A DNA stretch of 64,000 nucleotides, from assembly GCF_044324875.1 (NCBI RefSeq), contig NZ_CP172185.1; one strand, 5' to 3'. The first letter of the stretch is position 1. Every line of letters begins with the position of its first letter. The position numbers and the translations under genes are program-made. Below the pieces are notes generated by a model. That model searched no databases, was not told where the DNA came from, and saw only the letters and a program-made list of their open reading frames with translations. Shown here one piece after another: positions 9,161 to 60,296 of this stretch. This DNA comes from Escherichia coli. Its GTDB lineage: Bacteria > Pseudomonadota > Gammaproteobacteria > Enterobacterales > Enterobacteriaceae.

Positions 9161-9468
9161 AACAATTTCCCTTCATTGAATGAATGGAGATTTACCCAAA
9201 AACATTTCGGGCGGGATCGAGTATACACAACTAAAGCATGCGAATTACGGTGTGGGGAATTAGCGATGGGGTTTTAGGATAATTGGAATGAATATCAAAT
9301 ATAAGTTTCAACTTATATATAAATAAGATTAAAAATCAAAAAGTTAAAATAGAATCAAAAATAATCAACCTACGTATTTTCCGAAATCAATCACGATTAA
9401 AAATTTATTTTAGGATTAACCTCACAGCATGATTTCCGTTAAATCACAGACAAGGGGATTTATCTGAT

Positions 9469-9495
9469 AAAAAATGCCGACATAACGTCGGCATT
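9469..9495 (-). terminator. Rho-independent terminator of pgi
   Basis: Minus-strand hairpin AATGCCGACGTTATGTCGGCATT followed by TTTTTT, 19 bp downstream of the pgi stop. Confidence 0.75.
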
Positions 9496-9513
9496 GTTAT
9501 TAAGGTTATTTAA

Positions 9514-11163
9514 TTAACCGCGCCACGCTTTATAGCGGTTAATCAGACCATTGGTCGAGCTATCGTGGCTGCTGATTTCTTTATCATCTTTCAGCTCTGG
9601 CAGAATACGGTTCGCCAGTTGTTTACCCAGCTCCACGCCCCACTGGTCGAAGGTGAAGATGTTCAGAATCACGCCCTGAGTAAAGATTTTGTGCTCATAC
9701 AGCGCAATCAACGCACCCAGGCTGAACGGAGTGATTTCGCGCAGCAGGATGGAGTTGGTCGGGCGGTTACCTTCGAACACTTTGAACGGCACCACGTAGT
9801 CAAGCGTTGCCGGATCTTTACCCTGATCACGATATTCCTGCTCAACCACTTCGCGGGATTTACCAAACGCCAGCGCTTCGGTCTGAGCAAAGAAGTTAGA
9901 CAGCAGTTTCTGGTGATGATCAGAGAGCGGGTTATGGGTGATAGCCGGGGCGATGAAATCGCACGGTACCATTTTGGTTCCCTGGTGGATCAGCTGGTAG
10001 AACGCGTGCTGACCGTTAGTGCCTGGTTCACCCCAGATAATCGGGCCAGTCTGGTAATTCACGACGTTACCGTTACGGTCAACGTACTTACCGTTGGACT
10101 CCATATTGCCCTGCTGGAAGTACGCCGCGAAACGGTGCATATACTGGTCATACGGCAGAATCGCTTCAGTTTCCGCGCCAAAGAAATTGTTGTACCAGAT
10201 GCCAATCAGCGCCAGTAGTACAGGCAGGTTTTTCTCGGCAGGCGTGGTGGAGAAATGCTTGTCCATCGCGTGTGCGCCAGAAAGCAGTTCAACGAAGTTA
10301 TCAAAGCCGATGGAGAGAACAATCGACAGGCCAATCGCTGACCACAAAGAGTAACGGCCGCCAACCCAGTCCCAGAACTCGAACATGTTGGCAGTATCAA
10401 TACCAAACTCGCCAACGGCTTTGGCATTGGTTGAGAGCGCCGCAAAGTGTTTTGCAACGTGTTTTTCATCACCTGCCGCTTTCAGGAACCAGTCACGCGC
10501 GCTATGGGCGTTGGTCATAGTTTCCTGAGTGGTGAAGGTTTTAGAGGCTACCAGGAACAGCGTGGTTTCCGGGTTTACTTTTTTCAGCACTTCCGCGATG
10601 TGAGTCCCATCGACGTTAGAAACAAAGTGCATGTTCAGGTGATTTTTGTACGGACGCAGTGCTTCGGTCACCATGTACGGGCCGAGGTCAGAACCACCGA
10701 TCCCGATGTTCACTACGTCAGTGATTGCTTTGCCGGTATAACCCTTCCACTCACCGGAAATAATCGCTTCCGAGAAGGTTTTCATCTTCTCCAGCACCGC
10801 GTTGACTTCTGGCATTACGTCTTTGCCATCAACCAGAATCGGGGTATTGCTACGGTTACGCAGCGCTACGTGCAGCACGGCGCGGTTTTCAGTGCGGTTG
10901 ATCTTCTCGCCAGAGAACATCGACTTAATCGCGCCCGCCAGATCGCACTCTTTCGCCAGATCTTGTAATTTCGCCAGCGTCTCTTCAGTGATGCGGTTTT
11001 TGGAGTAATCCACCAGCATCTGATCGTCGAAGGTTGCGGAGAACTTAGAAAAACGATCGCCGTCTTTAGCAAAAAGATCGGCGATCGTAACGTCTTTCAT
11101 TTCATCGAAGTGTTTCTGTAGTGCCTGCCAGGCAGCGGTCTGCGTTGGATTGATGTTTTTCAT
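9514..11163 (-). CDS. pgi: Glucose-6-phosphate isomerase Pgi (549 aa)
   Basis: Translation [41 protein letters not shown]... is Pgi; start set at the ATG (rc of 11161-11163) instead of the upstream TTG used by the ORF track. Confidence 0.97.
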
Positions 11164-11399
11164 TAGCAATACTCTTCTGATTTTGAGAATTGTGACTTTG
11201 GAAGATTGTAGCGCCAGTCACAGAAAAATGTGATGGTTTTAGTGCCGTTAGCGTAATGTTGAGTGTAAACCCTTAGCGCAGTGAAGCATTTATTAGCTGA
11301 ACTACTGACCGCCAGGAGTGGATGAAAAATCCGCATGACCCCATCGTTGACAACCGCCCCGCTCACCCTTTATTTATAAATGTACTACCTGCGCTAGCG

Positions 11400-11687
11400 C
11401 AGGCCAGAAGAGGCGCGTTGCCCAAGTAACGGTGTTGGAGGAGCCAGTCCTGTGATAACACCTGAGGGGGTGCATCGCCGAGGTGATTGAACGGCTGGCC
11501 ACGTTCATCATCGGCTACAGGGGCTGAATCCCCTGGGTTGTCACCAGAAGCGTTCGCAGTCGGGCGTTTCGCAAGTGGTGGAGCACTTCTGGGTGAAAAT
11601 AGTAGCGAAGTATCGCTCTGCGCCCACCCGTCTTCCGCTCTTCCCTTGTGCCAAGGCTGAAAATGGATCCCCTGACACGAGGTAGTT
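11400..11687 (+). ncRNA. Lysine riboswitch (L-box) in the lysC 5' leader
   Basis: Long structured leader directly upstream of lysC containing the conserved AGAGGCGC start and GG..GAGG..TGG..CCGA elements typical of the lysC L-box; boundaries approximate. Confidence 0.75.
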
Positions 11688-13037
11688 ATGTCTGAAATTG
11701 TTGTCTCCAAATTTGGCGGTACCAGCGTAGCTGATTTTGACGCCATGAACCGCAGCGCTGATATTGTGCTTTCTGATGCCAACGTACGTTTAGTTGTTCT
11801 CTCGGCTTCTGCTGGTATCACTAATCTGCTGGTCGCTTTAGCTGAAGGACTGGAACCTGGCGAGCGATTCGAAAAACTCGACGCAATCCGCAATATCCAG
11901 TTTGCCATTCTGGAACGTCTGCGTTACCCGAACGTTATCCGTGAAGAGATTGAACGTCTGCTGGAGAACATTACTGTTCTGGCAGAAGCGGCGGCGCTGG
12001 CAACGTCTCCGGCGCTGACAGATGAACTGGTCAGCCACGGCGAGCTGATGTCGACCCTGCTGTTTGTCGAAATCCTGCGCGAACGCGATGTTCAGGCACA
12101 GTGGTTTGATGTACGTAAAGTGATGCGTACCAACGACCGATTTGGTCGTGCAGAGCCAGATGTAGCCGCGCTGGCGGAACTGGCCGCGCTGCAGCTGCTC
12201 CCACGCCTCAATGAAGGCTTAGTGATCACCCAGGGATTTATCGGTAGCGAAAATAAAGGTCGGACAACGACGCTTGGCCGTGGAGGCAGCGATTATACGG
12301 CAGCCTTGCTGGCGGAGGCTTTACACGCATCTCGTGTTGATATCTGGACCGACGTCCCGGGCATCTACACCACCGATCCACGCGTGGTTTCCGCAGCAAA
12401 ACGCATTGATGAAATCGCGTTTGCCGAAGCGGCAGAGATGGCAACTTTTGGTGCAAAAGTACTGCATCCGGCAACGTTGCTACCCGCAGTACGTAGCGAT
12501 ATCCCGGTCTTTGTTGGCTCCAGCAAAGACCCACGCGCAGGTGGTACGCTGGTGTGCAATAAAACTGAAAATCCGCCGCTATTCCGCGCGCTGGCGCTTC
12601 GTCGCAATCAGACTCTGCTCACTTTGCACAGCCTGAATATGCTGCATTCTCGCGGTTTCCTCGCGGAAGTTTTCGGCATCCTCGCGCGGCATAATATTTC
12701 GGTAGACTTAATCACCACGTCAGAAGTGAGCGTGGCATTAACCCTTGATACCACCGGTTCAACCTCCACTGGCGATACCTTGCTGACGCAATCTCTGCTG
12801 ATGGAGCTGTCTGCACTATGCCGGGTAGAAGTGGAGGAAGGTCTGGCGCTGGTCGCGTTGATTGGCAATGACCTGTCAAAAGCCTGCGGCGTTGGCAAAG
12901 AGGTATTCGGCGTACTGGAACCGTTCAACATTCGCATGATTTGTTACGGCGCATCCAGCCATAACCTGTGCTTCCTGGTGCCCGGCGAAGATGCCGAGCA
13001 GGTGGTGCAAAAACTGCATTTTAATTTGTTTGAGTAA
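11688..13037 (+). CDS. lysC: Lysine-sensitive aspartokinase III LysC (449 aa)
   Basis: Translation MSEIVVSKFGGTSVADFDAMNRSADIVLSDANVRLVVLSASAGITNLL... matches LysC. Confidence 0.98.
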   Translation: MSEIVVSKFGGTSVADFDAMNRSADIVLSDANVRLVVLSASAGITNLLVALAEGLEPGERFEKLDAIRNIQFAILERLRYPNVIREEIERLLENITVLAEAAALATSPALTDELVSHGELMSTLLFVEILRERDVQAQWFDVRKVMRTNDRFGRAEPDVAALAELAALQLLPRLNEGLVITQGFIGSENKGRTTTLGRGGSDYTAALLAEALHASRVDIWTDVPGIYTTDPRVVSAAKRIDEIAFAEAAEMATFGAKVLHPATLLPAVRSDIPVFVGSSKDPRAGGTLVCNKTENPPLFRALALRRNQTLLTLHSLNMLHSRGFLAEVFGILARHNISVDLITTSEVSVALTLDTTGSTSTGDTLLTQSLLMELSALCRVEVEEGLALVALIGNDLSKACGVGKEVFGVLEPFNIRMICYGASSHNLCFLVPGEDAEQVVQKLHFNLFE

Positions 13038-37326: not shown

Positions 37327-37446
37327 ATGCCTGGCAGTTCCCTACTCTCGCATGGGGAGACCCCACACTACCATCGGCGCTACGGCGTTTCACTTCTGAG
37401 TTCGGCATGGGGTCAGGTGGGACCACCGCGCTACGGCCGCCAGGCA
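37327..37446 (-). rRNA. rrfE: 5S ribosomal RNA (rrnE operon)
   Basis: Reverse complement reads TGCCTGGCGGCCGTAGCGCGGTGGTCCCACCTGACCCCATGCCGAACTCAGAAGTGAAACGCCGTAGCGCCGATGG...CCAGGCAT, the E. coli 5S sequence, 120 nt. Confidence 0.98.
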
Positions 37447-37544
37447 AATTCTGTTTTATCAACACGTCTCGTTATGACCTGTCGATTTAATCTGTATCAG
37501 GCTGAAAATCTTTCTCTCATCCGCCAAAACATCTTCGGCGTTGT

Positions 37545-40449
<2,905 letters not shown>

Positions 40450-40642
40450 TCACAACCCGAAGATGTTTCTTTCGATTCATCATCGTGTTGCGAAAATTTG
40501 AGAGACTCACGAACAACTTTCGTTGTTCAGTGTTTCAATTTTCAGCTTGATCCAGATTTTTAAAGAGCAAATATCTCAAACAAGACTTAACAGTCTGTTT
40601 TGAGATATTGAGGTCGGCGACTTTCACTCACAAACCAGCAAG

Positions 40643-40718
40643 TGGCGTCCCCTAGGGGATTCGAACCCCTGTTACCGCCGTGAAAGGGCGGTGTCCTGGG
40701 CCTCTAGACGAAGGGGAC
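40643..40718 (-). tRNA. gltV: tRNA-Glu (UUC) in the 16S-23S spacer
   Basis: Reverse complement GTCCCCTTCGTCTAGAGGCCCAGGACACCGCCCTTTCACGGCGGTAACAGGGGTTCGAATCCCCTAGGGGACGCCA, the E. coli tRNA-Glu sequence with encoded CCA. Confidence 0.97.
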
Positions 40719-40803
40719 GTATCAGTCTGCTTCGCAAGACGCCTTGCTTTTCACTTTCTATCAGACAATCTGTGTGAGCACTGCAAAGTACGCTTCTTTA
40801 AGG

Positions 40804-42345
<1,542 letters not shown>

Positions 42346-53811: not shown

Positions 53812-54288
53812 ATGCTTAACCAGCTCGATAACCTGACGGAACGCGTCAGAGGAAGTAACAAACTGGTTGATCGCTGGCTACATGTACGTAAGCATCTGCT
53901 CGTGGCTTACTACAATCTGGTTGGCATTAAGCCTGGCAAAGAATCGTACATGAGGCTAAACGAAAAAGCCCTTGATGATTTTTGTCAGAGCCTGGTCGAT
54001 TACTTGTCTGCCGGACATTTCAGTATTTATGAGCGCATTCTTCATAAGCTGGAAGGCAACGGGCAACTCGCGCGCGCCGCGAAGATTTGGCCGCAACTCG
54101 AAGCCAATACCCAACAGATTATGGATTACTACGATTCCAGCCTGGAAACCGCCATCGATCATGATAATTACCTTGAGTTTCAACAGGTTTTATCTGACAT
54201 CGGCGAGGCGCTGGAAGCACGCTTTGTGCTGGAAGATAAGTTGATTCTGCTGGTACTTGACGCCGCCCGCGTCAAACATCCTGCTTGA
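53812..54288 (+). CDS. rsd: Regulator of sigma D, anti-sigma70 factor Rsd (158 aa)
   Basis: MLNQLDNLTERVRGSNKLVDRWLHVRKHLLVAYYNLVGIKPGKES... Confidence 0.95.
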   Translation: MLNQLDNLTERVRGSNKLVDRWLHVRKHLLVAYYNLVGIKPGKESYMRLNEKALDDFCQSLVDYLSAGHFSIYERILHKLEGNGQLARAAKIWPQLEANTQQIMDYYDSSLETAIDHDNYLEFQQVLSDIGEALEARFVLEDKLILLVLDAARVKHPA

Positions 54289-54324
54289 GTTCTGCGCTGT
54301 TAACGCGTAATTTACATTCAACGC

Positions 54325-54445
54325 CCCGTTTGTGGGGCTAATTTCTTGTCGGAGTGCCTTAACTGGCTGAGACCGTTTATTCGGGATCCGCGGAACCTGA
54401 TCAGGCTAATACCTGCGAAGGGAACAAGAGTTAATCTGCTATCGC
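54325..54445 (+). ncRNA. TPP riboswitch (thi-box) in the thiC leader
   Basis: Conserved thi-box core CTGAGACCGTTTATTCGGGATCCGCGGAACCTGATCAGGCTAATACCTGCGAAGGGAACAAG upstream of thiC; boundaries approximate. Confidence 0.8.
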
Positions 54446-54517
54446 ATCGCCCCTGCGGCGATCGTCTCTTGCTTCATCCGTCGTCTGACAAGCCACGTCC
54501 TTAACTTTTTGGAATGA

Positions 54518-56415
<1,898 letters not shown>

Positions 56416-56416
<1 letters not shown>

Positions 56417-57051
56417 TGTATCAGCCTGATTTTCCTCCTGTACCTTTTCGTTTAGGACTGTACCCGGTGGTGGACAGCGCACAGTGGATCGAACGTCTGT
56501 TGGATGCAGGCGTGCGTACTCTCCAGCTACGCATCAAAGATCGGCGCGATGAAGAGGTGGAAGCCGATGTCGTGGCGGCAATTACGCTGGGCCGCCGCTA
56601 TAACGCGCGATTGTTTATCAACGATTACTGGCGGCTGGCGATCAAGCATCAGGCGTATGGCGTCCATCTGGGGCAGGAAGATTTGCAAGCCACCGATCTC
56701 AGCGCCATCCGCGCGGCAGGTCTGCGACTGGGCGTTTCGACCCATGACGATATGGAGATCGACGTCGCGCTGGCAGCACGCCCCTCTTATATCGCGCTGG
56801 GACATGTGTTCCCGACGCAAACCAAACAGATGCCTTCTGCACCGCAGGGGCTGGAACAGCTGGCACGGCATGTTGAGCGCCTGGCGGATTATCCCACCGT
56901 GGCGATTGGCGGTATCAGTCTGGCGCGCGCGCCTGCGGTGATAGCAACGGGTGTCGGCAGCATCGCCGTCGTAAGCGCCATTACTCAAGCCGCAGACTGG
57001 CGTTTGGCAACGGCACAGTTGCTGGAAATTGCAGGAGTTGGCGATGAATGA
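56416..57051 (+). CDS. thiE: Thiamine-phosphate synthase ThiE (211 aa)
   Basis: [21 protein letters not shown]...; ATG overlaps the thiC TGA stop by 1 nt (ORF track starts at the preceding GTG). Confidence 0.95.
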
Positions 57052-57799
57052 CCGTGATTTTATGCGTTATAGCCGCCAAATCCTGCTCGACGATATCGCT
57101 CTTGACGGGCAGCAAAAACTGCTCGACAGCCAGGTGCTGATTATCGGTCTTGGCGGGCTGGGTACACCTGCTGCGCTATACCTGGCGGGCGCTGGCGTCG
57201 GGACGCTGGTACTGGCAGATGACGACGATGTGCATTTAAGCAATCTGCAACGACAAATCCTCTTTACCACTGAAGATATCGATCGCCCGAAATCGCAGGT
57301 CAGCCATCAGCGACTGACACAGTTGAATCCCGATATTCAACTGACAGCATTACAACAACGGTTAACGGGTGAGGCGTTAAAAGATGCGGTAGCACGGGCC
57401 GATGTGGTGCTCGACTGTACCGACAATATGGCGACTCGTCAGGAGATTAATACCGCCTGCGTGGCACTCAACACGCCGCTTATCACCGCCAGCGCGGTCG
57501 GATTTGGCGGTCAGTTGATGGTACTGACGCCGCCCTGGGAGCAGGGGTGTTACCGCTGCCTGTGGCCAGATACCCAGGATCCAGAACGCAACTGCCGCAC
57601 GGCGGGCGTGGTTGGCCCGGTGGTCGGGGTTATGGGCACTTTGCAGGCACTGGAAGCCATTAAGTTGTTAAGCGGTATAGAGACGCCTGCGGGAGAATTC
57701 CGACTGTTCGACGGTAAGTCTAGCCAGTGGCGCAGCCTGGCGCTGCGCCGCGCTACAGGTTGCCCGGTATGCGGAGGAAGCAATGCAGATCCTGTTTAA
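57044..57799 (+). CDS. thiF: ThiS adenylyltransferase ThiF (251 aa)
   Basis: [53 protein letters not shown]... (E1-like fold, CxxC pairs); ORF track starts 5 codons upstream. Confidence 0.95.
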
Positions 57800-57983
57800 C
57801 GATCAACCGATGCAGTGCGCCGCCGGGCAAACGGTTCACGAACTACTGGAGCAACTCGACCAACGACAAGCGGGCGCGGCTCTGGCGATTAATCAGCAAA
57901 TCGTCCCGCGTGAGCAGTGGGCGCAACATATCGTGCAGGATGGCGACCAGATCCTGCTTTTTCAGGTTATTGCAGGGGGTTGA
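57783..57983 (+). CDS. thiS: Sulfur-carrier protein ThiS (66 aa, C-terminal GG)
   Basis: [27 protein letters not shown]...LLFQVIAGG. Confidence 0.95.
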
Positions 57984-57984
57984 G

Positions 57985-58755
57985 ATGTTACGTATTGCGG
58001 ACAAAACGTTTGATTCACATCTGTTTACCGGCACCGGGAAATTCGCCTCATCACAACTGATGGTGGAGTCTATTCGCGCTTCCGGCAGCCAACTGGTGAC
58101 GCTGGCGATGAAACGTGTCGACTTGCGCCAGCACAACGACGCTATCCTCGAACCGCTTATCGCGGCGGGTGTGACCCTGCTACCGAATACATCCGGGGCG
58201 AAAACAGCGGAAGAAGCCATTTTCGCCGCCCATCTGGCACGTGAAGCATTAGGCACAAACTGGCTAAAATTAGAGATTCACCCTGACGCCCGCTGGCTGT
58301 TGCCCGATCCCATCGAAACCCTGAAAGCCGCCGAAACGCTGGTACAACAGGGATTTGTCGTGCTGCCTTACTGCGGGGCCGATCCGGTATTGTGTAAACG
58401 TCTGGAAGAAGTCGGCTGTGCAGCGGTGATGCCGCTCGGCGCGCCGATTGGCTCGAATCAGGGACTGGAAACCCGTGCCATGCTGGAGATTATTATCCAG
58501 CAAGCCACGGTTCCGGTGGTTGTCGATGCTGGCATCGGCGTTCCCAGCCATGCCGCGCAGGCGCTGGAAATGGGGGCCGACGCGGTGTTAGTGAATACGG
58601 CGATTGCCGTCGCGGACGATCCCGTCAACATGGCGAAGGCATTTCGTCTGGCAGTAAAAGCAGGCCTGCTGGCTCGTCAGTCCGGACCGGGCAGCCGCAG
58701 TCATTTTGCTCATGCCACCAGCCCGCTGACTGGATTTCTGGAGGCATCGGCATGA
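57985..58755 (+). CDS. thiG: Thiazole synthase ThiG (256 aa)
   Basis: [45 protein letters not shown]...; start taken at the ATG 1 nt after the thiS stop (the ORF track frame extends upstream through thiS). Confidence 0.95.
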
Positions 58756-59885
58756 AAACCTTCAGCGATCGCTGGCGAGAACTGGACTGGGACGACATCC
58801 GCCTGCGTATCAACGGCAAAACGGCTGCTGACGTAGAGCGGGCGCTAAATGCCTCGCAACTCACCCGCGACGATATGATGGCGCTGTTATCGCCAGCCGC
58901 CAGTGGCTATCTGGAACTACTGGCCCAACGGGCGCAGCGTCTGACCCGTCAACGATTTGGCAACACTGTTAGCTTCTACGTCCCGCTTTATCTTTCCAAT
59001 CTTTGCGCTAACGACTGCACGTACTGCGGATTCTCTATGAGCAACCGCATCAAGCGCAAAACGCTGGATGAAGCGGATATTGCCAGGGAAAGCGCCGCTA
59101 TACGGGAGATGGGCTTTGAACATCTGCTTTTAGTCACTGGTGAACATCAGGCGAAAGTGGGGATGGATTACTTTCGTCGTCATCTCCCTGCCCTGCGTGA
59201 ACAGTTCTCTTCACTACAGATGGAAGTACAGCCGCTGGCGGAGACGGAATACGCCGAGTTAAAGCAACTTGGTCTGGATGGCGTGATGGTTTATCAGGAG
59301 ACATATCACGAGGCGACTTATGCCCGCCATCATCTGAAAGGCAAAAAACAGGACTTCTTCTGGCGGCTGGAAACGCCGGATCGGCTGGGCCGTGCGGGGA
59401 TTGATAAGATAGGCCTCGGCGCGCTAATTGGCCTTTCCGACAGCTGGCGCGTTGACTGCTATATGGTTGCAGAACATTTGCTATGGCTGCAACAGCATTA
59501 CTGGCAAAGCCGCTACTCTGTCTCCTTCCCACGCCTGCGTCCATGTACTGGCGGCATTGAGCCTGCGTCGATTATGGATGAACGCCAGTTAGTGCAAACC
59601 ATCTGCGCCTTCCGGCTGCTTGCACCGGAGATTGAACTGTCACTCTCCACGCGGGAATCACCGTGGTTTCGCGATCGCGTTATTCCGCTGGCAATTAATA
59701 ACGTCAGCGCTTTTTCGAAAACGCAGCCAGGTGGCTATGCCGACAATCACCCCGAGCTGGAACAGTTCTCACCGCACGACGATCGCAGACCGGAAGCGGT
59801 TGCTGCCGCGTTAACTGCTCAGGGTTTGCAGCCGGTATGGAAAGACTGGGACAGCTTTCTGGGACGCGCCTCGCAAAGGCCATGA
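58752..59885 (+). CDS. thiH: 2-iminoacetate synthase ThiH, radical SAM tyrosine lyase (377 aa)
   Basis: [10 protein letters not shown] radical-SAM motif; 4-nt overlap with thiG. Confidence 0.95.
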
Positions 59886-60133
59886 GACAGAATGTAAGAA
59901 CGTAAATTTATTCCGAGCCGCTACGGAAGATGAAAAACGCAAGGTTGTTGAAAGCGTTGTGTTTTTTTATGGTAGTGCCGTCAGCAGGAATGTTGTCCAG
60001 GGCGAAAAGCTTCTTCCTCGTTTCGCCCTGCCTTTCTTAAAAATTCCGTAATGCAAAGTCTGAAGCCATCGCCTGTTGAGCAATGAAAGAGATCTGATTG
60101 TAAGAGAGTAAATACTCAACTATGATAGAGACG

Positions 60134-60296
60134 AAAATAAGAACACATGTTCTCATCTTCTAGGATGCAGCAGACTGAAGAAATTCAGACATCCCGCAAC
60201 CTGCGATTATCGCAAGGTCAAGGCAAAGTCCGGTAATGGCGTTCTGAATACCAGAGATAATTCTCTGGCGAAACCCACCTTAAGGTGGGTTTTGTT
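60134..60296 (+). ncRNA. Candidate small RNA (SroH-like) in the thiH-htrC intergenic region
   Basis: Sigma70-like promoter TTGTAA-17bp-TATGAT (60098-60126) followed about 165 nt later by a strong plus-strand terminator AAACCCACC-TTAA-GGTGGGTTT + TGTTATTTT (60270-60296); no plausible ORF; K-12 is reported to encode sRNA SroH in this intergenic region (from memory). Confidence 0.35.

What the first reader, a model, noticed from the sequence alone, without database searches (positions are those of the whole stretch)
54325..54445. TPP riboswitch upstream of thiCEFSGH
Conserved thi-box present; the thi operon here is highly compact, with overlapping start/stop codons at thiC/thiE, thiE/thiF, thiF/thiS and thiG/thiH, consistent with translational coupling downstream of a single riboswitch.
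Basis: partly seen in the sequence, partly recalled or inferred. Interest (0 to 1): 0.2.

Follow-up and report, generated by a model that had tools for sequence, protein, structure and literature searches.

The report
E. coli thiC TPP riboswitch
This is the well-studied thiamin-pyrophosphate riboswitch in front of the E. coli thiCEFSGH thiamin-synthesis operon, identical in sequence to the K-12 element whose mechanism is already published, so the finding is correct but ordinary.

Summary
Rfam's TPP model (RF00059) hits window 54340-54440 (+) at 74.8 bits against a gathering score of 54.3 (E 1.5e-13). RefSeq annotates a TPP riboswitch at the same place, and the leader is present in 5420 of 5426 complete E. 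coli genomes. From the published +1 (window 54339) to +222 the sequence is identical to K-12 MG1655, so the published mechanism (Chauvier 2017) applies directly. TPP must bind during transcription. It stabilises P1, which lets a helix sequester the Shine-Dalgarno sequence and AUG, exposes a C-rich rut site, and triggers Rho/NusG termination at a pause on the start codon. Without TPP, an anti-P1 helix locks the switch ON. My own folding and a comparison of 38 gamma-proteobacterial thiC leaders recover the anti-P1 and RBS-sequestering helices. The start/stop overlaps are real (thiC/E 1 nt, E/F 8, F/S 17, G/H 4; thiS/G has a 1-nt gap) and conserved in related genera. One open side point: the published +1 abuts a covarying GC hairpin, and the only conserved promoter-like element lies upstream of that hairpin. 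Novelty: already known. Interest: low.

The parts
54285..54313 (+). Candidate thiC promoter: -35-like TTGAGT (54285-54290, overlapping the rsd stop codon TGA at 54286-54288), 17-nt spacer, -10-like TAATTT (54308-54313). Predicted start near 54320. Inferred, not demonstrated.
   Evidence: Conserved without indels in 7 Enterobacteriaceae genera. Resembles CTTGTAG-N16-TATACT, which sits directly upstream of P1 in other Enterobacterales and Vibrionaceae. Too weak for the consensus scan to flag.
54299..54316 (+). Conserved block GTTAACGCGTAATTTACA in the rsd-thiC spacer. It contains the -10-like hexamer; the reason the rest is conserved is unexplained.
54323..54338 (+). GC hairpin GCCCCGTTTGTGGGGC followed by TAATTTCTT. 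It is the only terminator-like structure after rsd and it ends at the base before the published thiC +1.
   Evidence: Terminator-like scan hit, -10.8 kcal/mol. Arm sequences differ but pairing is kept in at least 10 Enterobacterales genera. Absent from most leaders not linked to rsd. No Term-seq 3' end is listed here in the conditions seen.
54339..54339 (+). Published +1 of thiC mRNA (primer extension, Chauvier 2017), equal to MG1655 4,196,281.
   Evidence: Only this offset puts C7, G16, G31, A138, C158, U160, U184, U186, C187 and U188 on the right bases.
54339..54434 (+). TPP aptamer. P1 is 54345-54349 paired with 54424-54428, with an E. coli-specific extension 54339-54343 paired with 54429-54433. 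CUGAGA (including G31 at 54369) lies at 54367-54372. The P4/P5 pyrophosphate-sensor arm is 54396-54421.
   Evidence: RF00059 at 74.8 bits. Pair list. RNAalifold on 27 leaders recovers P1, P2/P3, P4 and P5 with 4 compensatory pairs. RefSeq riboswitch feature.
54434..54435 (+). Very abundant in vivo RNA 3' end (leader nt 96/97) at the foot of P1. Best read as a stable aptamer fragment left after Rho termination and 3' trimming; the trimming is inferred.
   Evidence: Adams 2021 Term-seq: MG1655 4,196,186/185, score about 1.8-1.9 million, Rho score 2.38 'Yes', tagged riboswitch. Mapped onto the window by exact string match.
54438..54478 (+). C-rich, G-poor rut region (leader 100-140).
   Evidence: 16 C against 9 G in 41 nt. 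C minus G is +12 to +20 points in 25-nt windows centred on leader positions 109-157. In the predicted ON state 54466-54475 pairs with the P1 3' strand and is freed in the OFF state. Published S1 and Rho probing.
54484..54492 (+). Anti-P1 3' strand UCUGACAAG. It pairs with 54345-54353 (the 5' strands of P1 and P2) in the TPP-free ON state.
   Evidence: Nine pairs in the unconstrained MFE. A complement to the invariant CUUGUCGGAG is found in 32 of 38 leaders at p<=0.05. Published mutants C147G/U148G/G149C.
54487..54525 (+). RBS-sequestering hairpin of the OFF state. The 5' strand 54487-54500 overlaps the anti-P1 strand. The 3' strand 54511-54525 covers the SD-like GGAAUGAG (54511-54518) and the AUG (54521-54523).
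   Evidence: Constrained fold. Recovered in 38 leaders: AUG paired in 35, SD region paired in 37, two-sided changes present. Published RNase H probing.
54476..54526 (+). Published pause sites A138 (54476), C158 (54496) and C187/U188 (54525/54526), and Rho termination points U184 (54522) and C187 (54525).
   Evidence: Coordinates mapped from PMC5234074. GCUAUGUC around the start codon is conserved from Enterobacterales to Vibrio and Alteromonadales.
54521..59885 (+). thiC 54521-56416, thiE 56416-57051, thiF 57044-57799, thiS 57783-57983, thiG 57985-58755, thiH 58752-59885.
   Evidence: Intact ORFs and junctions; family assignments; RefSeq coordinates agree.
59998..60036 (+). Operon terminator: hairpin CAGGGCGAAA...UUUCGCCCUG (59998-60030), with the in vivo 3' end at 60036.
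   Evidence: Fold and exact match to the Adams 2021 3'-end entry at MG1655 4,190,584.

Best explanation
This is the E. coli thiC TPP riboswitch, a kinetically controlled OFF switch that acts at two levels on the thiCEFSGH operon. As the leader is transcribed, the aptamer (window 54339-54434) can bind TPP only within a short window, while RNA polymerase dwells at pauses A138 (54476) and C158 (54496). With TPP bound, P1 is locked. The segment 54487-54500 is then free to pair with 54511-54525, burying the Shine-Dalgarno sequence and AUG. The C-rich region 54438-54478 becomes accessible to Rho, the pause at the start codon (54525/54526) lengthens, and Rho with NusG terminates transcription at 54522/54525, so none of the six genes is transcribed. 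Transcripts that escape are still translationally repressed at thiC. Without TPP, once the polymerase reaches the start-codon pause, 54484-54492 pairs with the 5' strands of P1 and P2 (54345-54353). This anti-P1 helix locks the aptamer in a state that cannot bind TPP, leaves the RBS open, and transcription and translation proceed. Downstream, the overlapping or abutting cistrons, each with its own SD, are probably translated in a coupled way. Status of each step: identity, anatomy and conservation are shown here. Ligand binding, pausing, Rho termination and translational repression are shown in the literature for the identical sequence. Translational coupling and exonucleolytic trimming to the 3' end at nt 96/97 are inferred.
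For: RF00059 hit at 74.8 bits, above the 54.3 gathering score. The leader occurs in 5420 of 5426 complete E. coli genomes and is annotated as a TPP riboswitch. It is identical to MG1655 from +1 to +222. Every published landmark falls on the right base when +1 is 54339. Unconstrained and truncated folds give P1 for a 126-nt exposed transcript and anti-P1 once nt 146-154 are exposed. The ON state is -53.8 and the aptamer-enforced OFF state -38.8 kcal/mol, so the OFF state needs ligand and must be captured co-transcriptionally. The anti-P1 3' strand and the RBS-sequestering 5' strand overlap at 54487-54492 and so exclude each other. No intrinsic-terminator-like site lies on the + strand between the aptamer and the AUG. 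The region is C-rich and G-poor. The anti-P1 partner is found in 32 of 38 gamma-proteobacterial thiC leaders and the RBS-sequestering helix in 35-38 of 38. Aptamer helices carry compensatory changes. Published experiments cover G31C, P1-stabilised and anti-P1 mutants, loss of regulation with bicyclomycin, Rho+NusG termination at U184/C187, the U186A pause mutant, and Kswitch of 28 nM at EC-138 against 2.1 uM at EC-187 (PMC5234074). In vivo there is a Rho-dependent 3' end at leader nt 96/97 and a 38.8-fold bicyclomycin-sensitive region inside thiC at about window 54690 (PMC7815308).
Against: Nothing found contradicts the identification. Three weak points remain. (1) The single-sequence MFE of the leader is no better than shuffles (z = 0.06), so thermodynamics alone would not single it out. 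(2) The P1 5' strand CUUGUCGGAG is invariant in the sample, so anti-P1 is supported only by one-sided compatible changes, not by two-sided covariation. (3) The comparison set was selected with a pattern that fixes the ligand-binding core, so conservation of that core in the set is circular. The native 5' end is less certain than the literature implies; see the novel case.
Confidence: 0.96

Rival explanations
1. A purely translational riboswitch: TPP only occludes the thiC RBS, and the rest of the operon falls silent through loss of translational coupling across the overlapping junctions. This is the picture the first reader implied.
For: The RBS-sequestering helix is real and conserved. Four of the five junctions overlap and the pattern is conserved. 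Published in vitro transcription-translation shows direct TPP repression of ThiC synthesis (Fig. 1g-h).
Against: Transcriptional fusions are also repressed by TPP, and that repression is abolished by bicyclomycin. Rho+NusG terminate at U184/C187 in a purified system without ribosomes. In vivo Term-seq shows a Rho-dependent 3' end in the leader and 38.8-fold bicyclomycin read-through in early thiC. thiE, thiF, thiS and thiH each have a strong SD of their own (AGGAGG, AGGAG, GGAGG, GGAGG), so they need not depend on upstream ribosomes.
Confidence: 0.03
2. A transcriptional riboswitch that works through an intrinsic terminator in the expression platform, as in Bacillus-type TPP riboswitches.
For: mRNA levels fall with TPP. 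An abundant short leader RNA ends at nt 96/97.
Against: No stem-plus-U-run site lies on the + strand between 54440 and 54520. Single-round transcription without Rho gives no premature product. The 3' end at 96/97 sits at the foot of P1 with no U-tract (AGUUAA|UCUGC) and is scored Rho-dependent.
Confidence: 0.01

Closest known systems
E. coli K-12 thiC TPP riboswitch (Winkler 2002; Chauvier et al. 2017, PMC5234074)
   Same: It is the same element. The sequence is identical from the published +1 through +222, with the same flanking genes rsd and thiCEFSGH.
   Different: There are three substitutions just upstream of +1, in or next to the hairpin loop (window 54322, 54328, 54333), and two silent-region differences inside thiC. 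None lies in the riboswitch.
E. coli thiM and thiB/tbpA TPP riboswitches
   Same: Same aptamer class (RF00059), with RBS sequestration and pausing near the start codon (section 13). thiM also shows premature Rho-dependent termination.
   Different: Different operons (salvage and transport). They are outside this window and only one TPP hit occurs here. According to PMC5234074, thiC differs in that TPP modulates both rut accessibility and pause lifetime directly, with NusG, rather than acting through loss of translation.
Rho-dependent riboswitches ribB (FMN, E. coli) and mgtA (Mg2+, Salmonella)
   Same: Ligand-controlled Rho termination in a 5' leader that has no intrinsic terminator.
   Different: Different aptamers and ligands. 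PMC5234074 states that thiC was the first riboswitch shown to control Rho through both rut access and pausing.
Gram-positive TPP riboswitches with intrinsic terminators (e.g. Bacillus tenA/thiC leaders; from general knowledge)
   Same: Same aptamer fold and ligand.
   Different: Their expression platform is a terminator/antiterminator pair. No terminator-like site exists in the platform here.

Membership tests
TPP riboswitch (Rfam RF00059, THI element) | Covariance-model score at or above the curated gathering score over the full model | tested here: met
   74.8 bits against 54.3, model positions 1-105 of 105, E 1.5e-13.
TPP riboswitch (Rfam RF00059, THI element) | Conserved ligand-contact sequence: CUGAGA in the pyrimidine-sensor arm and ACCUGAUC...GCG in the pyrophosphate-sensor arm (the thi-box) | tested here: met
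   CUGAGA at 54367-54372 and ACCUGAUCAGGCUAAUACCUGCG at 54395-54417. G31 (54369) is the residue whose G31C change abolishes regulation.
TPP riboswitch (Rfam RF00059, THI element) | Helices P1-P5 supported by covariation among homologues | tested here: met
   RNAalifold on 27 thiC leaders predicts 22 pairs in P1, P2/P3, P4 and P5, 4 of them with two-sided changes. The core was fixed by the search pattern, so only P1, the P2/P3 arm and the N positions are independent.
TPP riboswitch (Rfam RF00059, THI element) | Located in the 5' leader, same strand, of a thiamin biosynthesis or transport gene | tested here: met
   The Rfam match ends 80 nt before the thiC ATG (the folded aptamer, to 54434, ends 86 nt before it). 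thiCEFSGH identified by NCBIfam and Pfam.
TPP riboswitch (Rfam RF00059, THI element) | Binds TPP and changes conformation | not testable with these tools
   Published for the identical sequence: Kswitch 422 nM overall and 28 nM in EC-138 (PMC5234074).
Riboswitch with Rho-dependent expression platform | No intrinsic terminator; a C-rich, G-poor, unstructured rut region upstream of the termination point | tested here: met
   No terminator-like site in 54440-54520 on the + strand. 39% C against 22% G in leader 100-140. Part of that region is paired in the predicted ON state and freed in the OFF state.
Riboswitch with Rho-dependent expression platform | Termination requires Rho and is relieved by bicyclomycin | not testable with these tools
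   Published: bicyclomycin abolishes regulation, and Rho+NusG give 64% termination at U184/C187. In vivo Rho score 2.38 'Yes' and 38.8-fold bicyclomycin read-through.
Translationally acting riboswitch (RBS sequestration with an anti-P1 alternative) | Mutually exclusive helices: P1 against anti-P1, and anti-P1 against the RBS-sequestering stem | tested here: met
   Strand overlaps at 54345-54349 and 54487-54492. Both helices recur across 38 leaders.
Translationally coupled operon | Stop and start codons overlap or abut at successive cistrons | tested here: met
   Spacings of -1, -8, -17, +1 and -4 nt. The same pattern is found in three other Enterobacteriaceae genera, and junctions are tight across Enterobacterales (start codons chosen heuristically).
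Translationally coupled operon | Downstream translation depends on upstream translation | not testable with these tools
   No experiment was found. Each downstream gene has its own SD, so dependence is not required.

The most novel reading that the evidence does not exclude
The native thiC transcript of E. coli and other Enterobacteriaceae may start about 19 nt upstream of the published +1, near window 54320 (MG1655 about 4,196,300). It would come from a conserved TTGAGT-N17-TAATTT promoter that overlaps the rsd stop codon. The mRNA would then begin with the covarying GC hairpin 54323-54338, which is also the only terminator-like structure after rsd. On this reading the primer-extension end at 54339 is a reverse-transcriptase stop or a processed end. 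The hairpin would serve as a 5' stabiliser or insulator for the aptamer, and perhaps as a leaky rsd terminator placed downstream of the thiC promoter. This would shift the leader numbering and add an unstudied element to a model riboswitch. It would not change the switch mechanism.
Probability: 0.35. Interest if true: 0.3.

Novelty: already known. Interest (0 to 1): 0.07.

Why it matters
It matters little as a discovery. This is one of the first riboswitches ever described and one of the best dissected mechanistically. The only thing a specialist might want to revisit is the native 5' end and promoter. The published +1 rests on primer extension alone and sits at the foot of a conserved hairpin with no -10 element in front of it. 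Most in vitro work uses transcripts that start at that position, so an extra 5' hairpin in the natural mRNA could affect folding kinetics or stability.

Tried and rejected
(1) Single-sequence folding significance: the MFE of 54325-54545 is no better than shuffles (z 0.06), so I dropped it as evidence and used constrained folds, truncated folds and comparative tests instead.

(2) A search for genome-wide TSS data to settle 54320 against 54339. The Thomason 2015 paper is not held. The supplements of the Cappable-seq, SMRT-Cappable-seq and ROSE papers, as held in text form, contain no entry for MG1655 4,1962xx/4,1963xx or for thiC; those files may be truncated. The rsd paper and the thiC biosensor paper give no thiC promoter coordinates.

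(3) A sigma-70 promoter directly upstream of 54339: -12..-7 reads CGTTTG, the consensus scan finds nothing, and that stretch is the variable hairpin arm in other genera. Rejected as a conserved promoter.

(4) TTTACA (54311-54316) as a -35 with TAATTT (54339-54344) as a -10: the spacer is 22 nt, the -10 is absent in Enterobacter and Lelliottia, and the resulting start would truncate P1. Rejected.

(5) sroH as a 3'-UTR fragment of the thi operon. Rejected, because the operon has its own terminator with a 3' end at 60036, and sroH (60133-60293) is preceded by a promoter-like TTGTAA-17-TATGAT at 60098-60126.

(6) The Mangrovibacter row of alignment A1 used wrong-strand coordinates and should be ignored.

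(7) The ORF 54346-54504 (52 aa, TTG start) inside the leader was treated as chance. It overlaps the aptamer and has no support.

Full report
OBSERVATION. Rfam's TPP model RF00059 matches window 54340-54440 (+) over its full length at 74.8 bits, against a gathering score of 54.3 (E 1.5e-13). It is the only TPP hit in the 64-kb window. The sequence shows the thi-box core, with CUGAGA at 54367-54372 and ACCUGAUCAGGCUAAUACCUGCG at 54395-54417. The six ORFs that follow are ThiC, ThiE, ThiF, ThiS and ThiH by NCBIfam equivalog models, and ThiG and ThiS by Pfam. The gene upstream is rsd. The junctions, read directly from the sequence, are: thiC/thiE sharing 1 nt (TGATG), thiE/thiF overlapping 8 nt (ATGAATGA), thiF/thiS overlapping 17 nt, thiS/thiG separated by 1 nt, and thiG/thiH overlapping 4 nt (ATGA). 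Its interval 54325-54445 is slightly generous at the 5' end, where 54325-54338 belongs to a separate hairpin.

IDENTITY. A 421-nt query spanning the leader is found in 5420 of 5426 complete E. coli genomes, at 100% identity in two of them. RefSeq annotates a 'TPP riboswitch' at the same position, between rsd and thiC. Against K-12 MG1655 (thiC ATG at 4,196,099; conversion MG1655 = 4,250,620 minus window coordinate) the window differs at only five positions in 54270-54700. Three of them are in or next to the loop of the upstream hairpin and none is in the riboswitch. The experimental literature on the K-12 thiC riboswitch therefore applies to this sequence base for base.

MAPPING THE PUBLISHED MECHANISM. 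Chauvier et al. 2017 (PMC5234074) number the leader from a +1 determined by primer extension. Only +1 = window 54339 places C7, G16, G31, A138, C158, U160, U184, U186, C187 and U188 on the correct bases. In window coordinates the elements are:
- P1: 54345-54349 paired with 54424-54428, with an E. coli extension 54339-54343 paired with 54429-54433.
- rut region: 54438-54478.
- Anti-P1: 54345-54353 paired with 54484-54492.
- RBS-sequestering helix: 54487-54500 paired with 54511-54525, covering GGAAUGAG and the AUG at 54521.
- Pauses: 54476, 54496 and 54525/6.
- Rho termination points: 54522 and 54525.

The paper shows several things. Both translational and transcriptional fusions are repressed by TPP. 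G31C and P1-locking mutants abolish the response. Bicyclomycin abolishes mRNA-level regulation. Purified Rho with NusG gives TPP-dependent termination at U184/C187, with no intrinsic termination in the absence of Rho. TPP is sensed only co-transcriptionally (Kswitch 28 nM at EC-138 against 2.1 uM at EC-187). Anti-P1 mutations restore binding at EC-187.

INDEPENDENT CHECKS. Plain thermodynamic folding reproduces this logic. A 126-nt exposed transcript folds into the aptamer with P1. As soon as nt 146-154 are exposed, the MFE switches to anti-P1. With the aptamer pairs enforced, the best structure is -38.8 kcal/mol and contains the RBS-sequestering hairpin. The unconstrained structure (which is anti-P1) is -53.8 kcal/mol. 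The OFF state is therefore far from the ligand-free ground state and has to be captured during transcription, in line with the published kinetic model. In the predicted ON state the P1 3' strand (54422-54430) pairs with 54466-54475 inside the C-rich region. In the OFF state that stretch is free, which fits the published TPP-dependent exposure of the rut site. The region has 39% C and 22% G, and no intrinsic-terminator-like site exists in the platform.

In vivo data from Adams et al. 2021 (PMC7815308) add two points. There is a very abundant 3' end at MG1655 4,196,186/185, which is window 54434/54435 or leader nt 96/97, at the foot of the extended P1. It is scored Rho-dependent and tagged 'riboswitch'. 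There is also a 38.8-fold bicyclomycin-sensitive region inside thiC near window 54690. I read the 96/97 end as the product of 3' trimming back to the stable aptamer after Rho termination. That step is inference.

COMPARATIVE TEST. I scanned genome contigs with a pattern that fixes only the ligand-binding core. The scan gave 120 loci, 53 of them with thiC downstream. In the 38 leaders where P1 could be located, the P1/P2 5' strand is CUUGUCGGAG in all but two (Thiomicrorhabdus L004 has AUUGUCGGAG; the Nitrospirae MAG L012 differs). A complement to that strand lies 25-62 nt upstream of the start codon in nearly all of them, and 32 of 38 reach p<=0.05 against dinucleotide shuffles. Because the 5' strand is invariant, this is compatible variation (for example UCUGACAAG, UCCGACAAG, UCUGGCAAG), not two-sided covariation.

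The segment that overlaps this strand pairs with the SD/AUG region in essentially every leader: AUG is paired in 35 of 38, the SD region in 37 of 38, and 27 of 38 reach p<=0.05. Here there are true two-sided changes, for example AAGC/GCUAUG in enterics against AGAC/GUCAUG in Pseudoalteromonas. RNAalifold on 27 aptamers recovers P1, P2/P3, P4 and P5 with compensatory changes in four pairs. This reproduces, on an independent sample, the 77-sequence analysis in the paper. The junction pattern -1/-8/-17/+1/-4 is identical in Lelliottia, Siccibacter and Mangrovibacter, and junctions are tight throughout Enterobacterales (start codons chosen heuristically).

Translational coupling is plausible, but it is neither demonstrated nor required. 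thiE, thiF, thiS and thiH each have a strong SD of their own, and the operon-wide effect of TPP is explained by Rho termination at the thiC start codon. The operon ends at its own terminator (hairpin 59998-60030, in vivo 3' end at 60036). The sroH RNA further downstream (RF00372, 60133-60293) has its own promoter-like site.

AN OPEN SIDE POINT. The published +1 (54339) is the first base after a GC hairpin (54323-54338, -10.8 kcal/mol) followed by UAAUUUCUU, which the scan flags as terminator-like. There is no -10-like hexamer at -12..-7. In other Enterobacteriaceae that stretch is the hairpin's 3' arm, whose sequence varies while pairing is kept: GCCCC/GGGGC, CCUCU/AGAGG, CCCCUC/GAGGGG, AUCGC/GCGAU, CGGCCC/GGGCCG and GUCGCC/GGUGAC. 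What is conserved, without indels, is CTTGAG(T/A)-N17-TA(A/G)(T/G)TT, upstream of the hairpin and overlapping the rsd stop codon.

In Enterobacterales outside the Enterobacteriaceae, and in Vibrionaceae and other gamma-proteobacteria, a near-consensus TATACT sits 7-9 nt upstream of CTTGTCGGAG, often with CTTGTAG 16 nt further upstream, and no hairpin lies between. Budvicia has TATACT, then a hairpin, then CTTGT, like E. coli. Strong hairpins are enriched in rsd-linked leaders (9 of 14 at -10 kcal/mol or stronger, against 5 of 24 otherwise). Yet the Term-seq lists I could see contain no 3' end between 4,196,186 and 4,196,488.

One reading is that the real promoter lies upstream of the hairpin, with a start near 54320, and that 54339 is a reverse-transcriptase stop or a processed end. 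The alternative is that the published +1 is right and is driven by a non-consensus promoter. I could not reach TSS tables to decide. This does not affect the identification or the switch mechanism.

VERDICT. The finding is correct and already known. It is a good positive control for the scan and nothing more. Interest is 0.07. The most novel reading not excluded concerns the native 5' end and hairpin (probability about 0.35, modest interest).

Noticed in passing
window 54285-54339: The published thiC +1 (54339) abuts a covarying GC hairpin (54323-54338) and has no -10 element in front of it. The only conserved promoter-like element (TTGAGT-N17-TAATTT, 54285-54313) lies upstream of the hairpin. 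Outside the Enterobacteriaceae, the equivalent CTTGTAG-N16-TATACT sits directly upstream of P1 with no hairpin.
   Followed up: partly
window 54299-54316: The block GTTAACGCGTAATTTACA is conserved across Enterobacteriaceae genera in an otherwise variable rsd-thiC spacer. It contains the -10-like hexamer, but the conservation of the TTAACGCG part, which would be promoter spacer, is unexplained.
   Followed up: partly
window 54434-54435: One of the strongest Term-seq 3' ends listed nearby (score about 1.8-1.9 million; Adams 2021) lies at leader nt 96/97. This implies that a stable aptamer-only RNA of about 96 nt (or about 115 nt) accumulates in vivo. I did not check whether it has any function in trans.
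   Followed up: partly
window 54322, 54328, 54333: All three differences from K-12 within 54270-54560 fall in or next to the loop of the upstream hairpin. The riboswitch itself is invariant between the two strains.
   Followed up: yes
window 54517-54526 and loci L007-L116: GCUAUGUC around the thiC start codon, the site of the regulatory pause and of Rho termination, is conserved from Enterobacterales to Vibrio, Alteromonas and Idiomarina. This is more than Met-Ser coding alone would require.
   Followed up: partly
window 54356-54367 versus alignment A2: E. coli and E. albertii have an unusually short first aptamer hairpin (GCCUUAACUGGC, 12 nt). Most other Enterobacterales carry 21-40 nt there.
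   Followed up: no
L083 (Enterobacter asburiae) and L039 (Serratia oryzae), rsd-thiC spacer: An insertion of about 125 nt containing GAGTGAATCC(C/T)C(G/A)GGAGCTTACAT(A/G)AGTAAGTGAC(C/T)GGGGTGA(A/G)CGA lies upstream of the aptamer (after the hairpin in L083). From memory it resembles an ERIC/IRU repeat; this was not tested.
   Followed up: no
window 59998-60036 and 60098-60293: The thi operon terminator (in vivo 3' end at 60036) is followed by sroH (RF00372, 200.8 bits, 60133-60293). sroH is preceded by a promoter-like TTGTAA-17-TATGAT at 60098-60126, so it looks like an independent transcript rather than a thi 3'-UTR fragment.
   Followed up: partly
L001 (NZ_CP076709.1) 11053-12185 versus window 58752-59885: The genome whose leader is 100% identical has thiH annotated as a frameshifted pseudogene (1133 nt). 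thiH in the window is intact (377 aa).
   Followed up: no
window 9357-9505, 11400-11596, 37329-42345: Other Rfam hits in the window: STnc430 sRNA (86 bits), a lysine riboswitch (99.5 bits, presumably lysC), and a complete rrn operon on the minus strand with 5S, 23S, StyR-44, a tRNA and 16S.
   Followed up: no
loci L020, L028, L101, L106, L111, L113 (Vibrionaceae, Plesiomonas and an Alteromonadales genome): The apparent thiC-thiE 'gap' of 430-930 nt probably reflects a longer ThiE with an N-terminal extension (compare the 438-aa model NF008933), not an intergenic space. Not verified.
   Followed up: no
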